Part shown: piece after piece, positions 627 to 14,845 of the stretch
How positions within the stretch are numbered: the first letter of the stretch is position 1
Layout of the letters: every line of letters starts with the position of its first letter
IMG/VR virus record: IMGVR_UViG_3300027513_000011
Span: 64,001 to 81,989 of that record
Reading direction: 5' to 3' (one strand)
DNA length: 17,989 nucleotides
Origin: a virus
Taxonomy: Duplodnaviria > Heunggongvirae > Uroviricota > Caudoviricetes
Notes under the pieces: model-generated
The model's database searches: none
What the model was told of the DNA's origin: nothing
What the model saw: the letters and a program-made list of their open reading frames with translations, nothing else
Made by a program: the position numbers and the translations under genes

Positions 627-1537
627 TGACCTGGGACGGGCTCGCCTCTGAGGCGCTAGGAGTTGAGCCCCTAGCCGGCGACCCTCTCGCCGTAGACGCC
701 ACATTCGGGTTCGCGTCTGAGGCAGATAGCGCCCGACCCTTCTTCGCGGACTCGGTGCTGCTTGAAACCTATGGCCTGGCATCTGAGACAGACACCGCTA
801 TGTCCTTCAGCGCCGACTCAGTGGTGCTTGACGAGTATCTGCTTGCCTCGGAAACCGACAGCGCCATGTCGTTCCTCGCTGTCGTCCAAAAGATGGTCAC
901 GTTCGGGCTGGCTAGTGAGTCCGACAGCTCCATGCCGTTCACCGCCGCCACTCCACACACGGCGACGTTCGGGTTCAGCGATGAGACAGATGAAGCAATG
1001 CCGTTTGCGGCAGGCACAGGATCAGCGAGCCTATATCAGTTCGCTTCCGAGGCTGATGAGGCTATGTCCTTCAGCGCCGATACCGAAGTCCTCAGCTTCT
1101 ACGGGTTCAGCGGTGAGACAGATGAAGCCATGTCGTTCACCGCCGATACCGACCTCCTCGACCTCTACGACTTGGCTGACGAAACAGATGCCGCGATGCC
1201 GTTCAGCGCCGGCATCGAAGTGATAGATCTCTTTACTTTCGCGGACGAGACAGACAGCGCGATGCCGTTTGGCACGAGCCTGGAAGTGCTCAACCTGTAC
1301 ACCTTCGCGGAAGAGACAGACGAAGCCATGCCGTTCCTTGCCGGCACGGTGATCTCGGACGACCACGGGTTCGCTGGGGAAACTGATACCGCCATGCCCT
1401 TCACTGCCGTAGCCCTGTCGATACCGGGGGAAGGGGGGAGCTCGCAGTCCTGTCGCCACCGTAGCGAGTTCTCCCGCTTCAACTACTGCCGGTGCTGCAA
1501 CTGTGATGTCGTGGAGTCTGGGTCTACCTCAAGCTGA
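626..1537 (+). CDS. Acidic 303-aa protein with 11 tandem 22-aa repeats and a Cys-rich C-terminus; probable virion/tail-associated protein
   Basis: TAATG overlap with the upstream gene (TAA 624-626, ATG 626-628). Repeat consensus [FY]x[FL]AxE[TA]DxAM[PS]Fxxxxxxxxx. Location at the end of the tail operon. Confidence 0.8.
   Translation: MTWDGLASEALGVEPLAGDPLAVDATFGFASEADSARPFFADSVLLETYGLASETDTAMSFSADSVVLDEYLLASETDSAMSFLAVVQKMVTFGLASESDSSMPFTAATPHTATFGFSDETDEAMPFAAGTGSASLYQFASEADEAMSFSADTEVLSFYGFSGETDEAMSFTADTDLLDLYDLADETDAAMPFSAGIEVIDLFTFADETDSAMPFGTSLEVLNLYTFAEETDEAMPFLAGTVISDDHGFAGETDTAMPFTAVALSIPGEGGSSQSCRHRSEFSRFNYCRCCNCDVVESGSTSS
704..1429 (+). repeat. Intragenic tandem repeat, 11 x 66 bp (22 aa), degenerate
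   Basis: Units run from FGFASEADSARPFFADSVLLET to HGFAGETDTAMPFTAVALSIPG, each exactly 22 aa. The exact 20-mer GCTATGTCCTTCAGCGCCGA occurs at 797 and 1061, a spacing of 264 = 4 x 66. Confidence 0.95.
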
Positions 1538-7812: not shown

Positions 7813-8754
7813 GTGGACGACTCAACCTACTTCGATCTGTCGTCCCTTGAACACGGCTCCGATGACTTTGGCTTCGACCCGAACAGCTACGACACCGACT
7901 GCCAAGTGGATGCCTGGCTGCACGACCGCATTGTACTCCACAAGTCTGGCACCATGCCAGCGCACAACCTGTGGTCCGAGCTCTACGTCGAGCGGGAGTT
8001 GCGCCGGCTCCCCGATGTGGTCGAGGCGCCCCGCCCTTGCGCCGATCCCAACTGCGTGTACCGCAGGACAGATGCCGCTTACCTGGCTCTGCGCCTGGTG
8101 CTGGCGATCAAGGAGTACGAGCAGCGTGGACTCCGACGCAACCCCGAGTTCTTCAGGGTCCGGGTAGTGAGTGCGGGCCGGGAATGGGAGGCGTTTCGGA
8201 AGGCGATCCAGCGAACAGGACGTAAGCCATCGGAAGCCAACAGGAATCAGCCTCCACTACCGATAGGTAACGTTAGATCTCGTGACGTGCCCCCTTGGTA
8301 CAGGAAGAATCTGGATGTCCCCATTACCCGCGGTCTTTCTTCTTCTTCTTATCCGCGGGTAACAGGGACAGGAAATATCTTCCAGTCGCCAGGCAGAGAG
8401 TGGGCTCTGGCGGTGCCGGATCTCGAAGGGAACTACCTTGCGGTGTGGTCGGCCAAGAGGATGCCGGACAGTGGTGATGCGTACAAGCTGGACGAGGCCC
8501 AGACCTTGATCCGATTCTACCTGGAGAAGCGAGACAAGGCGGAAGGTCGCAAGCCCAGGATCAAGAAGGTCGGACTCCCGAACGTAGACCCGAGAAGGCG
8601 GTGGTGCCCACAGTGCAGGGGCGAGGTCCGTAACAACATGAGCCAGATCAGGCTTGACAACGGGAAGAAGCGACCACCGACCTGCTTCTGGTGTGGGACC
8701 GAGACGGCCGCCTGGTACACCTTCGAGCATTACCGCGGGAAGGAAGTGACTTGA
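7813..8754 (+). CDS. 313-aa protein with C-terminal Zn ribbon; candidate replication initiator or DNA-binding protein
   Basis: Long ORF against the prevailing strand; C-terminal CPQC-x22-CFWC; basic central region; low-complexity SSSS linker containing a large inverted repeat. The function is inference. Confidence 0.7.
   Translation: MDDSTYFDLSSLEHGSDDFGFDPNSYDTDCQVDAWLHDRIVLHKSGTMPAHNLWSELYVERELRRLPDVVEAPRPCADPNCVYRRTDAAYLALRLVLAIKEYEQRGLRRNPEFFRVRVVSAGREWEAFRKAIQRTGRKPSEANRNQPPLPIGNVRSRDVPPWYRKNLDVPITRGLSSSSYPRVTGTGNIFQSPGREWALAVPDLEGNYLAVWSAKRMPDSGDAYKLDEAQTLIRFYLEKRDKAEGRKPRIKKVGLPNVDPRRRWCPQCRGEVRNNMSQIRLDNGKKRPPTCFWCGTETAAWYTFEHYRGKEVT
8316..8370. repeat. 18-bp imperfect inverted repeat around a (TCT)n pyrimidine tract, inside the 313-aa gene
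   Basis: TGTCCC-CA-TTACCCGCGG (8316-8333), tctttcttcttcttcttat, CCGCGGGTAA-CA-GGGACA (8353-8370); 16 of 18 positions pair. Confidence 0.85.
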
Positions 8755-8927
8755 CCTGTGACCAATGCGGGGCCGAACTCACCTACATGCACGGTCACGC
8801 CACATGCACAACCTCGGGCTGCCCGTGGGCGGGAGCGAACTTGGCACCATGCTGCGGTGGTGATATCATGGATCATCGCGTCGAGGCGCTAGCTGCCAGC
8901 AGTTGCGTAATCTCGATCGTGAACTAA
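8751..8927 (+). CDS. Small Cys/His-rich Zn-binding protein (58 aa)
   Basis: TTG 8751 overlaps the upstream TGA (TTGA), after GGAAGG; CDQCG..L...HGHATC....C........CCGG. Confidence 0.7.
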   Translation: MTCDQCGAELTYMHGHATCTTSGCPWAGANLAPCCGGDIMDHRVEALAASSCVISIVN

Positions 8928-9019
8928 GTGGTTGCCCCCACTCAAAGGTCTGGCAGCCGAGAGATGCCAGATGGGTTCGCCCCAATCAAGGTTCTCTCGG
9001 ACCTTGGGGGCGAACCTTT
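8927..9019. ncRNA. Candidate structured RNA or bidirectional terminator: two hairpins with complementary (kissing) loops
   Basis: HP1: TCTGGCA (8949-8955) / TGCCAGA (8965-8971), loop GCCGAGAGA. HP2: GGTTCGCCCC (8974-8983) + CAAGGT (8987-8992) / ACCTTG (9001-9006) + GGGGCGAACC (9007-9016), loop TCTCTCGG. CCGAGAGA and TCTCTCGG are exact reverse complements. Confidence 0.6.
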
Positions 9020-9020
9020 C

Positions 9021-9311
9021 TCACCAGCTCGTGATCCCCTTGTTCCGCAGCCTCACGACCTCGCCTCTCAGCCCGTCCGGCAACTTCATGCCGATGGCGG
9101 CGTACACGGAGGCCACAACGAGGGCAGTGCGAGGGCCGAAGTCACCTTTCGGAGCCCCCTTCTCCGCATCGCAGTACAAGGTGGCGCCGCGCCGGGCGTG
9201 AACGTCGGGGTTGCGGCCACAGAGGGAGCACTTCGGCCAGGGTGGTACTTCCACAATCTGGAAGCTCTCAGAGGCCCCAGAATCCGAGTTAGGGTCCAGG
9301 GGCATAGTCAC
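9021..9311 (-). CDS. Hypothetical protein with CxxC motif (~96 aa)
   Basis: CSLC...LYC; last gene of the leftward block, converging on the structured intergenic region. The start could be GTG 9311 or ATG 9305. Confidence 0.6.
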   Translation of the reverse strand: MTMPLDPNSDSGASESFQIVEVPPWPKCSLCGRNPDVHARRGATLYCDAEKGAPKGDFGPRTALVVASVYAAIGMKLPDGLRGEVVRLRNKGITSW

Positions 9312-14536: not shown

Positions 14537-14845
14537 TCAGAACGTCTCTTCCCTATCGTCCGTATCAACGTAGACCTTGCGCCATTCCCTGTCAGAGCAA
14601 TCGCGCCATTCCCTGTCAGAGCAATCGTTAACCCCATATCCATACGGGTCAGTGGTCCTGCCATGAATCTCGCCGTGGGCATCGCACCACACATACCTAT
14701 CAGCCCGTCGTTTGTACCTCATAATCAACCCTCTCTCTTCAATGGAACGCATCTCTAGCCACTCTGCAAAGGTGAGAAGAGCTTCACCTATCTGAATCCT
14801 GCCGTCCACCCACATACCGTAGTGGGACAACTGGTCGAACCCCAT
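14537..14845 (-). CDS. Hypothetical protein (102 aa) with CDAHGEIH motif and an internal 8-aa duplication
   Basis: GAGGA RBS; DCSDREWR occurs twice; possible internal start at 14722. Confidence 0.7.
   Translation of the reverse strand: MGFDQLSHYGMWVDGRIQIGEALLTFAEWLEMRSIEERGLIMRYKRRADRYVWCDAHGEIHGRTTDPYGYGVNDCSDREWRDCSDREWRKVYVDTDDREETF
14579..14627. repeat. Perfect 24-bp tandem duplication (in frame)
   Basis: CGCCATTCCCTGTCAGAGCAATCG at 14580-14603 and 14604-14627. Confidence 0.95.

What the first reader, a model, noticed from the sequence alone, without database searches (positions are those of the whole stretch)
8927..9019. Candidate novel structured RNA: adjacent hairpins with perfectly complementary 8-nt kissing loops plus a competing alternative fold
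The loop of HP1 (CCGAGAGA, 8957-8964) is the exact reverse complement of the entire loop of HP2 (TCTCTCGG, 8993-9000). By chance this is about 2 registers / 4^8, roughly 3e-5, so the loops look selected. AAAGG (8944-8948) / CCTTT (9015-9019) could close a three-way junction, giving a compact kissing-loop architecture. Segment 8930-8950 (GGTTGCCCCCA...AAGGTC) is a near-copy of 8974-8993 and can pair with the same 3' strand (GACCTT...TGGGGGCGAACC), giving two mutually exclusive folds. The pairing works on both strands, and the element sits between two convergent stop codons. A simple terminator does not need loop-loop pairing. Possible roles include an exonuclease-resistant 3' cap, an RNA switch or sRNA, a replication-control RNA for the adjacent candidate initiator, or a multimerising (pRNA-like) RNA. 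I could not match it to hammerhead, HDV-like, purine or guanidine-II consensus cores.
Basis: partly seen in the sequence, partly recalled or inferred. Interest (0 to 1): 0.8.

Follow-up and report, generated by a model that had tools for sequence, protein, structure and literature searches.

The report
Optional phage small-RNA module, pairing loops
The two hairpins with matching loops are real and are part of a roughly 157-base optional insert, found in some relatives of an uncultured actinobacterial phage and missing in others, that brings its own promoter and most likely makes a ~145-base structured RNA of unknown function.

Summary
The loop segments 8957-8964 and 8993-9000 are exact reverse complements. 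This is the only one of 122 neighbouring hairpin pairs in the 82-kb genome with more than 4 complementary loop bases, and 0 of 20 genome shuffles reach 8.

In a relative only 79% identical (L014) both loops changed yet still pair. Three loop-loop pairs changed on both sides, and five stem pairs are compensated.

The element is larger than reported. The hairpins are the 3' two-thirds of a ~157-nt insert (about 8863-9019). The insert is present in three lineages and absent in three, including one 95% identical, where the two convergent genes simply overlap.

The insert supplies an extended -10 (TGnTATCAT) that, with a flanking TTGGCA 17 nt upstream, makes a near-consensus sigmaA-type promoter. 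That promoter is kept in L014 and points into the hairpins. A 44-nt block covering the -10 and the start of the predicted RNA is identical between the two lineages.

Best reading: an accessory non-coding RNA gene on the + strand with four hairpins, whose hairpins also separate two convergent operons. I cannot tell whether the loops kiss within one molecule, kiss between molecules, or form an alternative long helix. There is no Rfam match. No RNA data could be consulted. Only three sequence variants exist.

The parts
8841..8846 (+). -35 hexamer TTGGCA, inside the 3' end of the Zn-ribbon ORF (flanking DNA, not part of the insert)
   Evidence: The same hexamer is present in L014. Element-free L015 and L018 have CTGGCC and CTGGCT at this place, which are synonymous differences.
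8861..8869 (+). Extended -10, TG-a-TATCAT, 17 nt after the -35. It lies at the left edge of the insert.
   Evidence: scores it 10 of 12 plus TG. Across the whole 82-kb genome, both strands, there are 6 such sites against 0.05 expected in shuffles. L014 has TG-g-TATCAT with the same spacing.
8863..9019 (+). The insert: present in the window, L017 and L026 (identical), L014 = L025, and L016 (partial). Absent in L015, L018 and L027.
   Evidence: Alignments and reading. In the element-free relatives the two convergent genes overlap by about 14 nt.
8864..8907 (+). 44-nt block identical between the window and L014. It covers the -10, the predicted start site (about 8875-8878) and the 5' strand and apical loop of HPu.
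   Evidence: 44 of 45 identical, against 65-78% in the neighbouring segments. All synonymous sites of the overlapping ORF extension are unchanged.
8876..8922 (+). HPu, a 47-nt hairpin at the predicted 5' end of the RNA. It forms only on the + strand.
   Evidence: -22.4 kcal/mol, z -3.4 on the + strand, against -12.3, z +0.08 on the - strand. The same asymmetry appears in L014. It contains three G.U pairs.
8927..8942 (+). HP0, a small hairpin AGUGG-UUGCCC-CCACU that starts at the last base of the TAA stop codon.
   Evidence: One compensated pair (U-A to C-G) in L014.
8948..8972 (+). HP1: 8-bp stem and 9-nt loop. The loop segment CCGAGAGA is at 8957-8964.
   Evidence: The third stem pair reads U-A, U.G and C-G in the three lineages.
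8973..9017 (+). HP2: 11-bp outer stem, 3-nt bulge, inner stem, and loop segment TCTCTCGG at 8993-9000. It is followed by UUUCUCA.
   Evidence: Two compensated pairs in the outer stem and one in the inner stem. The bulge or hinge is kept in all three lineages.
8957..9000 (+). Loop-loop pairing, 8957-8964 with 8993-9000 (8 bp). In L014 it is 6-7 bp, CUAGGA(A) with (U)UCCUAG.
   Evidence: 8 pairs, 100% of cells paired, 3 pairs changed on both sides. This was counted on a MAFFT alignment made without any structure input.
8930..8950 (+). R1, a near-copy of the 5' strand of HP2. It can pair with 9001-9016 in an alternative long hairpin that also uses the loop-loop pairs.
   Evidence: Searches give -65.6 against -72.4 kcal/mol. 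All these pairs stay possible in L014, through one compensated pair and three wobble pairs (my reading).
8751..8927 (+). 58-aa Zn-ribbon ORF, whose last ~21 codons lie inside the insert. In element-free relatives it ends about 20 codons earlier.
   Evidence: The tail diverges and shifts frame between the window and L014 after the invariant block.
9021..9311 (-). 96-aa ORF of unknown function (P0001), the last gene of the leftward operon. Its stop codon lies 1 nt beyond the insert.

Best explanation
The hairpins belong to an accessory, non-coding 'moron-like' module of about 157 bp. It sits exactly between two tail-to-tail genes of an uncultured actinobacterial phage.

The module carries an extended -10 element. 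Together with a -35 in the flanking gene, this forms a sigmaA-type promoter. Transcription is predicted to start near 8875-8878 and to give a + strand RNA of about 145 nt with four hairpins: HPu, HP0, HP1 and HP2. The very stable HP2 marks the 3' end.

Within this RNA, the HP1 loop and the HP2 loop pair with each other. The most likely form is a loop-loop (kissing) contact that locks the 3' domain into a compact shape.

Because HP0 to HP2 also fold on the other strand, the same DNA acts as a barrier between the leftward operon and the rightward two-gene island. In relatives without the module these run into each other.

Shown here: the insert polymorphism, the promoter motif and its conservation, the stem covariation, the loop-loop covariation and the + strand bias.

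Inferred: that the promoter fires, where the RNA ends, that the loops kiss rather than form a nested helix, and any downstream function. My guess for function is a trans- or cis-antisense regulatory RNA, or a protective or insulating end structure.
For: - Insert polymorphism. The element is present in the window, L017 and L026, in L014 and L025 (flanks 79.5% identical) and in L016 (79%). It is absent in L027 (flanks 93-95% identical), L015 and L018.
- Promoter. TTGGCA, 17 nt, TGnTATCAT scores 10 of 12 plus TG. Six such sites occur in the genome against 0.05 expected. L014 has the same hexamers and spacing.
- Invariant block. A 44-nt stretch spans the -10 and the first ~30 nt of the predicted RNA, while the hairpin part has diverged as much as the flanking genes (65-75%).
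- Strand. HPu begins at the predicted start site and folds only on the + strand. I counted 12 G.U against 2 A-C cells on the + strand. These include internal U.G pairs in HP1 of L016 and HP2 of L014 that would be C-A mismatches on the other strand.
- Structure. z -5.1 for the 176-nt region. RNAalifold recovers HP1 and HP2. Seven pairs changed on both sides against 3.0 +/- 1.2 in shuffles, 0 of 500 reaching this, and every slid control gives 0.
- Loop-loop helix. 100% of cells are paired, with 3 pairs changed on both sides. In L014 the loops are complementary on their own at p about 1e-3 to 5e-3.
- No conserved ORF. The + frame through the hairpins hits a stop in L014, and the ORF tail shifts.
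- Literature. Highly expressed non-coding RNAs of unknown function are reported for actinophages WC1, D29, Kampy and L5 (PMC10986025).
Against: - No transcript data.
- Only three distinct sequences carry the element, and one of them is cut at a contig end. L014 supplies essentially all the covariation, so one lineage carries the argument.
- HP2 is not followed by a canonical U-tract. The window has UUUCUCA and L014 and L016 have none. The terminator scan does not call it.
- HPu is almost invariant, so it has thermodynamic support but no covariation support.
- In L014 the minimum-energy fold pairs the invariant block with the 5' strand of HP1 instead of forming HP1.
- The invariant block could be conserved for another reason, since it is also read as codons.
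- An intramolecular 8-bp kiss between an 8-bp hairpin and the tip of a 17-bp bent hairpin needs a sharp bend at the bulge. That is my own geometric reasoning and is untested.
Confidence: 0.55

Rival explanations
1. Plain bidirectional terminator or 3'-UTR cluster. The hairpins only end and protect the two convergent mRNAs, the promoter-like site is silent or incidental, and the loop complementarity has no function as a contact.
For: - The element fills the whole gap between two convergent stop codons.
- HP0 to HP2 fold on both strands.
- Compensated stems are expected for any selected terminator hairpin.
- Relatives without the element have no barrier at all.
Against: - A terminator needs neither a 44-nt invariant block, nor a + strand-only 47-nt hairpin upstream, nor a near-consensus promoter aimed into it.
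- The loop bases changed at three pairs on both sides and stayed complementary.
- There is no canonical U-tract on either strand in L014 or L016.
Confidence: 0.2
2. Two-state RNA switch. The same bases form either three hairpins, or one long hairpin made of R1 with the 3' strand of HP2, then AGGU with ACCU, then the two 'loop' segments as a nested helix. Function depends on the balance between the two folds.
For: - The alternative fold is coherent and lies only 7-9 kcal/mol above the minimum.
- Every pair of it remains possible in L014.
- One position changes in concert in R1, R2 and R3: A, A, U in the window and G, G, C in L014 and L016.
- The loop-loop covariation fits this fold equally well.
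Against: - Both folds leave the last strand paired just before the same 3' tail, so no obvious read-out differs between them.
- During transcription the three-hairpin fold forms first, and it is also the more stable.
- The small hairpin HP0, which competes with the long fold, has its own compensated pair.
- Most R1:R3 'conservation' in L014 is A-to-G change tolerated as U.G, which carries little information.
Confidence: 0.12
3. Self-assembling RNA. The HP1 loop of one molecule pairs with the HP2 loop of another, hand in hand, giving dimers or rings.
For: - Covariation cannot tell contacts within a molecule from contacts between molecules. In the phage RNAs ROOL and GOLLD, loop contacts of this kind turned out to be intermolecular (PMC12286853).
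- RNAs under 200 nt can form defined oligomers (bioRxiv 10.64898/2026.07.01.735769).
- The intramolecular version needs a strained bend (own reasoning).
Against: - There is no direct evidence.
- The two loops are close together in one molecule, which favours the intramolecular contact.
- The element is dispensable, so it is not an essential machine part like phi29 pRNA.
Confidence: 0.08
4. A DNA-level element: protein-binding repeats (iterons), an attachment or recombination site, or a miniature transposable element.
For: - Three copies of a ~20-bp motif, two direct and one inverted.
- A precise presence/absence polymorphism at one site.
Against: - In L014 the direct copies drift apart (13 of 22 identical) while the inverted copies stay complementary. 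That is base-pairing selection, not motif selection.
- I saw no terminal inverted repeats and no target-site duplication at the junctions.
- It is single-copy in the genome.
- No bacterial genome carries the invariant block beyond chance 20-28-mers.
- The G.U asymmetry points to RNA.
Confidence: 0.05

Closest known systems
Phage-encoded small non-coding RNAs, including the abundant unannotated ncRNAs of actinophages (WC1, D29, Kampy, L5; PMC10986025) and lambda OOP RNA (own knowledge)
   Same: A short non-coding transcription unit inside a phage genome, with its own sigma70/sigmaA-type promoter and a stable 3' hairpin. Like OOP, it points against a neighbouring operon and ends at the 3' end of a convergent gene.
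   Different: There is no sequence or Rfam relation. As predicted, it does not overlap the convergent coding region. It has four hairpins with mutually complementary loops. It is optional among close relatives. Expression has not been shown.
Phage 'morons' (own knowledge: extra modules with their own promoter and terminator, inserted between two genes that are adjacent in related phages)
   Same: It is inserted exactly between two genes that abut in relatives. It brings promoter and hairpin signals. Its distribution is patchy and does not follow flank similarity.
   Different: It carries no conserved protein-coding gene. The cargo appears to be the RNA itself. The -35 is borrowed from the flanking gene.
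Intrinsic, bidirectional terminators between convergent genes
   Same: G+C-rich hairpins that fill the gap between two stop codons and fold on both strands.
   Different: There is no canonical U-tract. There are three to four hairpins rather than one. It also has loop-loop covariation, an upstream promoter and a strand-specific hairpin.
   Same: Watson-Crick pairing between two hairpin loops that is kept by compensatory change. It is phage-borne, like pRNA, ROOL and GOLLD.
   Different: It matches none of those families in Rfam. The contact is unusually long (8 bp, the full HP2 loop). There is no ligand pocket or conserved junction. It is much smaller than ROOL or GOLLD. It is dispensable, unlike pRNA.

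Membership tests
Canonical intrinsic (Rho-independent) terminator | G+C-rich stem-loop | tested here: met
   HP2 has an 11 + 6 bp stem. The region's minimum free energy is -50 kcal/mol. The stems are conserved with compensation.
Canonical intrinsic (Rho-independent) terminator | U-rich tract directly 3' of the stem (at least 5 U in 8) | tested here: not met
   The window has UUUCUCAC. L014 has AUCACCAG and L016 has CUCACCAG. The terminator scan does not list the site on either strand.
SigmaA/sigma70-dependent transcription unit (sRNA gene) | -35 and -10 hexamers at 16-18 nt spacing, here with an extended -10 | tested here: met
   TTGGCA, 17 nt, TGaTATCAT, 10 of 12 plus TG. Sites of this quality number 6 in the genome against 0.05 in shuffles. 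The site is conserved in L014.
SigmaA/sigma70-dependent transcription unit (sRNA gene) | A discrete transcript with mapped 5' and 3' ends | not testable with these tools
No RNA data were available.
Any Rfam 15 family (for example purine and guanidine-II riboswitches, hammerhead, twister, pRNA, 6C, bacterial Y RNA) | Covariance-model score at or above the family's gathering threshold | tested here: not met
   There were 0 hits at gathering score over the whole window. Permissive searches gave only sub-threshold miRNA-precursor-type hairpin noise.
Loop-loop (kissing) interaction | Contiguous Watson-Crick complementarity between the loops of two hairpins, beyond chance | tested here: met
   8 of 8 bases. 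p is 4e-5 for random loops. It is the only such pair among 122 in the genome, and 0 of 20 shuffles reach 8.
Loop-loop (kissing) interaction | Complementarity kept through changes on both sides in homologues | tested here: met
   3 of 8 pairs changed on both sides in L014, and all cells are paired. However, only one diverged lineage informs this.
Loop-loop (kissing) interaction | The contact forms on top of both hairpins (tertiary or quaternary) rather than as a nested alternative helix | not testable with these tools
   Both topologies use the same pairs. The energies are within a few kcal/mol once a kiss bonus is added. Probing or structure determination is needed.
Phage moron | An extra module between genes that are adjacent in related phages | tested here: met
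   L015, L018 and L027 lack it and the flanking genes overlap there.
Phage moron | Carries a protein-coding gene | tested here: not met
   No ORF is conserved between the window and L014 across the hairpins. Only a variable tail is added to the Zn-ribbon ORF.
phi29-type pRNA | Essential packaging RNA that matches the pRNA model | tested here: not met
   There is no Rfam hit. The element is absent from a 95%-identical relative.

The most novel reading that the evidence does not exclude
A small (~145 nt), optional, phage-borne RNA whose two covarying complementary loops link molecules hand in hand into dimers or rings. It would be a miniature, self-assembling counterpart of pRNA, ROOL and GOLLD that some phage lineages carry and close relatives lack, possibly as a decoy or scaffold used against the host.
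Probability: 0.1. Interest if true: 0.85.

Novelty: new variant of a known kind. Interest (0 to 1): 0.6.

Why it matters
Non-coding RNAs of actinobacterial phages are seen in transcriptomes, but almost none has a defined structure or role.

This case gives a compact, testable candidate. It has a predicted promoter and defined hairpins. It has a loop-loop contact already backed by compensatory change. It also has natural 'with' and 'without' alleles in nearly identical phages, which amounts to a ready-made knockout comparison.

It further shows that an extra module inserted between phage genes can carry an RNA instead of a protein gene.

If the loops act between molecules, it would add a very small member to the newly recognised group of self-assembling phage RNAs.

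Tried and rejected
1. Split dUTPase or intron idea. A pattern search linked the last 37 residues of the 96-aa ORF to a dUTPase. No dUTPase continuation exists in any minus-strand frame. There is no Pfam hit even at E 10. The match was found through the very pattern used to search, so I dropped it.

2. Iterons or a protein-binding repeat. Rejected because the direct copies diverge while the inverted copies covary.

3. Transposon or MITE. No terminal inverted repeats or target duplication at the junctions. Single copy in the genome.

4. Attachment site. The 20-mer probe of the invariant block found only unrelated places in bacterial genomes and metagenomes.

5. The three-way junction closed by AAAGG/CCTTT. 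Not conserved.

6. More homologues. The following all found nothing further:
- flanking proteins against viral, metagenome and genome contigs;
- stem and block DNA patterns;
- a profile search of 1.84 billion representatives with the 313-aa family;
- BLAST against cultured phages;
- earlier notes of this scan.

8. Targets within the phage. Only chance-level 9-12-mers are complementary to the element elsewhere in the 82-kb contig.

Full report
**Setting**

The window is the last 18 kb of an 82-kb IMG/VR virus contig with 60% G+C. Most genes run leftward. A WhiB-family gene and a DinG/XPD-like helicase lie nearby, so the host is probably an actinobacterium. No cultured phage is close.

The finding lies between two convergent genes. 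A rightward two-gene island holds a 313-aa ORF at 7813-8754 and a 58-aa Zn-ribbon ORF at 8751-8927. The last gene of a leftward operon is a 96-aa ORF at 9021-9311. None of the three has a Pfam or PHROG family.

HP1 (8948-8972) and HP2 (8973-9017) are as described, and their loop segments CCGAGAGA and TCTCTCGG are exact reverse complements.

- Random loops of these sizes match this well with p = 4e-5. Keeping each loop's own composition gives 1.6e-3.
- As a look-elsewhere control I listed all perfect-stem hairpins of the 82-kb genome and all 122 neighbouring pairs. No other pair exceeds 4 complementary loop bases, and none of 20 dinucleotide shuffles of the genome reaches 8.
- Both strands fold into three hairpins far better than shuffles.

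Two details need correcting. The minimum-energy fold closes the HP2 loop by two more weak pairs. The proposed AAAGG/CCTTT closing helix overlaps the HP2 stem and is absent from relatives.

**Relatives**

The 96-aa protein has three diverged homologues and two near-identical copies in about 5.8 billion clusters. The 313-aa protein has two diverged homologues and two near-identical copies and no distant relatives at all. Their contigs gave the comparison set.

| Locus | Flank identity to window | Element |
|---|---|---|
| L017, L026 | L026 100% over 2600 nt; L017 read as identical over ~160 nt | present, identical |
| L014 = L025 | 79.5% | present, diverged |
| L016 | 79% | present, cut by the contig end |
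| L015 | 78-84% | absent |
| L018 | 77-80% | absent |
| L027 | 93-95% | absent |

Where the element is absent, the two convergent genes overlap by about 14 nt. So the hairpins are part of an insert of about 157 nt (8863-9019).

Presence does not follow flank similarity. The three empty sites share one junction sequence, and the filled sites share another. That suggests two old alleles shuffled by recombination rather than fresh deletions. I saw no terminal repeats or target duplication, and the element is single-copy. Because a 95%-identical phage lacks it, it is dispensable.

**A promoter comes with the insert**

The consensus scan finds TTGGCA (8841-8846), a 17-nt spacer, then TG-a-TATCAT (8861-8869) on the + strand.

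- Sites with at least 10 of 12 matches plus the TG extension occur six times in the whole genome, against 0.05 in shuffles.
- The -10 lies at the very left edge of the insert. The -35 lies in the flanking gene.
- L014 has the same hexamers, spacing and TG.
- Two of the three empty-site relatives read CTGGCC or CTGGCT at the -35 place, which are synonymous changes. All three have TACCAG where the -10 would be.

The predicted start is at about 8875-8878.

**A conserved 5' block and a fourth hairpin**

From 8864 to 8907 the window and L014 are identical, 44 of 44. The segments around this block are 65-78% identical. Every synonymous site of the ORF tail that overlaps the block is unchanged.

The block covers the -10, the start site, and the 5' strand and tip of a 47-nt hairpin, HPu (8876-8922). 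HPu folds at -22.4 kcal/mol (z -3.4) on the + strand but only at chance level on the - strand. The same asymmetry holds in L014.

After the block, the ORF tail differs in sequence and frame between the two lineages, so it is not protein-constrained.

**Structure and covariation**

On a MAFFT alignment made without any structural input, RNAalifold recovers HP1 and HP2. I then counted a structure that adds the loop-loop helix as a pseudoknot.

- 95.6% of cells are paired.
- Seven pairs changed on both sides, against 3.0 +/- 1.2 in shuffles. 0 of 500 shuffles reach seven, and every slid control gives 0.
- The loop-loop helix is the richest of the four helices counted: 8 pairs, all cells paired, three changed on both sides (C-G to U-A, G-C to A-U, A-U to G-C).
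- In L014 the loops read CUAGGA(A) and (U)UCCUAG, which on their own are complementary at p about 1e-3 to 5e-3.

The stems add five compensated pairs: one in HP0, one in HP1 (with the U.G intermediate in L016), two in the HP2 outer stem and one in the HP2 inner stem.

G.U pairs on the + strand outnumber A-C cells 12 to 2. This count leans toward the strand the structure was derived on. Even so, the two internal wobble pairs in HP1 of L016 and HP2 of L014 would be mismatches on the other strand.

**Kiss or alternative helix?**

R1 (8930-8940) pairs with 9005-9016, AGGU with ACCU, and the two loop segments pair as a nested helix. It scores -65.6 kcal/mol against -72.4 for the four-hairpin fold (compare).

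With the loops held open the four-hairpin fold scores -68.5, and the 8-bp duplex is worth -12.5. A kissed form is therefore energetically competitive.

All pairs of the alternative fold remain possible in L014. Most do so through A-to-G changes that U tolerates, which says little. One position does change in concert in all three repeat copies.

The covariation therefore shows that the two segments pair. It does not show in which topology. As ROOL and GOLLD illustrate (PMC12286853), it also does not show whether the pairing is within or between molecules.

I lean toward a kiss for three reasons:
- the hairpin fold is both the first to form and the most stable;
- HP0, which competes with the long fold, has its own compensated pair;
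- a bulge between the two HP2 stems is kept in all three lineages, as a hinge would be.

An unexplained extra is that the invariant GGCAGC of HP1 can also pair with GCUGCC in the 5' block or with GUUGCC in HP0.

**What it most likely is**

It is most likely an accessory non-coding RNA gene, about 145 nt, on the + strand. It is built like a moron but has an RNA as cargo. Its hairpins also insulate two convergent operons.

No Rfam family matches. No conserved ORF exists. No complementary target longer than chance lies elsewhere in the phage genome. The function is open. Candidates are a cis-antisense effect on leftward read-through transcripts (as for lambda OOP, from my own knowledge), a trans-acting regulator of host genes, or a nuclease-resistant end. 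Essential roles such as packaging RNA or replication control fit poorly with its absence from close relatives.

**Limits**

- There are only three sequence variants, and a single diverged lineage supplies nearly all the covariation.
- The 3' end lacks a canonical U-tract.

**Verdict**

Several of its details and suggested roles are not supported.

Noticed in passing
L015:540-640, L018:1170-1260, L027:1268-1430: In relatives without the insert, the Zn-ribbon gene and the 96-aa gene overlap tail to tail by about 14 nt, with no hairpin between two convergent operons.
   Followed up: partly
window 8892-8897, 8931-8936, 8952-8957: The invariant GGCAGC in HP1 has three possible partners: GCUGCC in the 5' block, GUUGCC in HP0, and the HP1 3' strand. 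The L014 minimum-energy fold uses the first, and RNAalifold on two sequences picks the second. Unexplained.
   Followed up: partly
window 9021-9110 (minus strand) and L003:2737-3333: The C-terminal 37 residues of the 96-aa ORF resemble the motif II region of a phage dUTPase (49% identity). The ORF stops where the dUTPase continues, and no continuation exists nearby. The hit was found through the search pattern itself and has no Pfam support.
   Followed up: yes
L022:1606-1640: A Pseudomonadota MAG contig shares a 28-nt exact match with the invariant block and shows no similarity beyond it. This is probably convergent coding of an Ala/Leu-rich peptide.
   Followed up: partly
window 8293-8393: A 41-nt imperfect inverted repeat (71% complementary, 19-nt spacer) lies inside the 313-aa gene. 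Another first-stage finding also noted it.
   Followed up: no
window 14579-14626: A perfect 24-nt tandem duplication.
   Followed up: no
window 766-1413: A run of 66-nt (22-aa) in-frame repeats in the 303-aa ORF at 626-1537.
   Followed up: no
genome position 41574 (outside the window): Another rightward promoter-like site, TTGACG-17-TGnTATCAT, uses the same -10 hexamer as the promoter of the insert.
   Followed up: no
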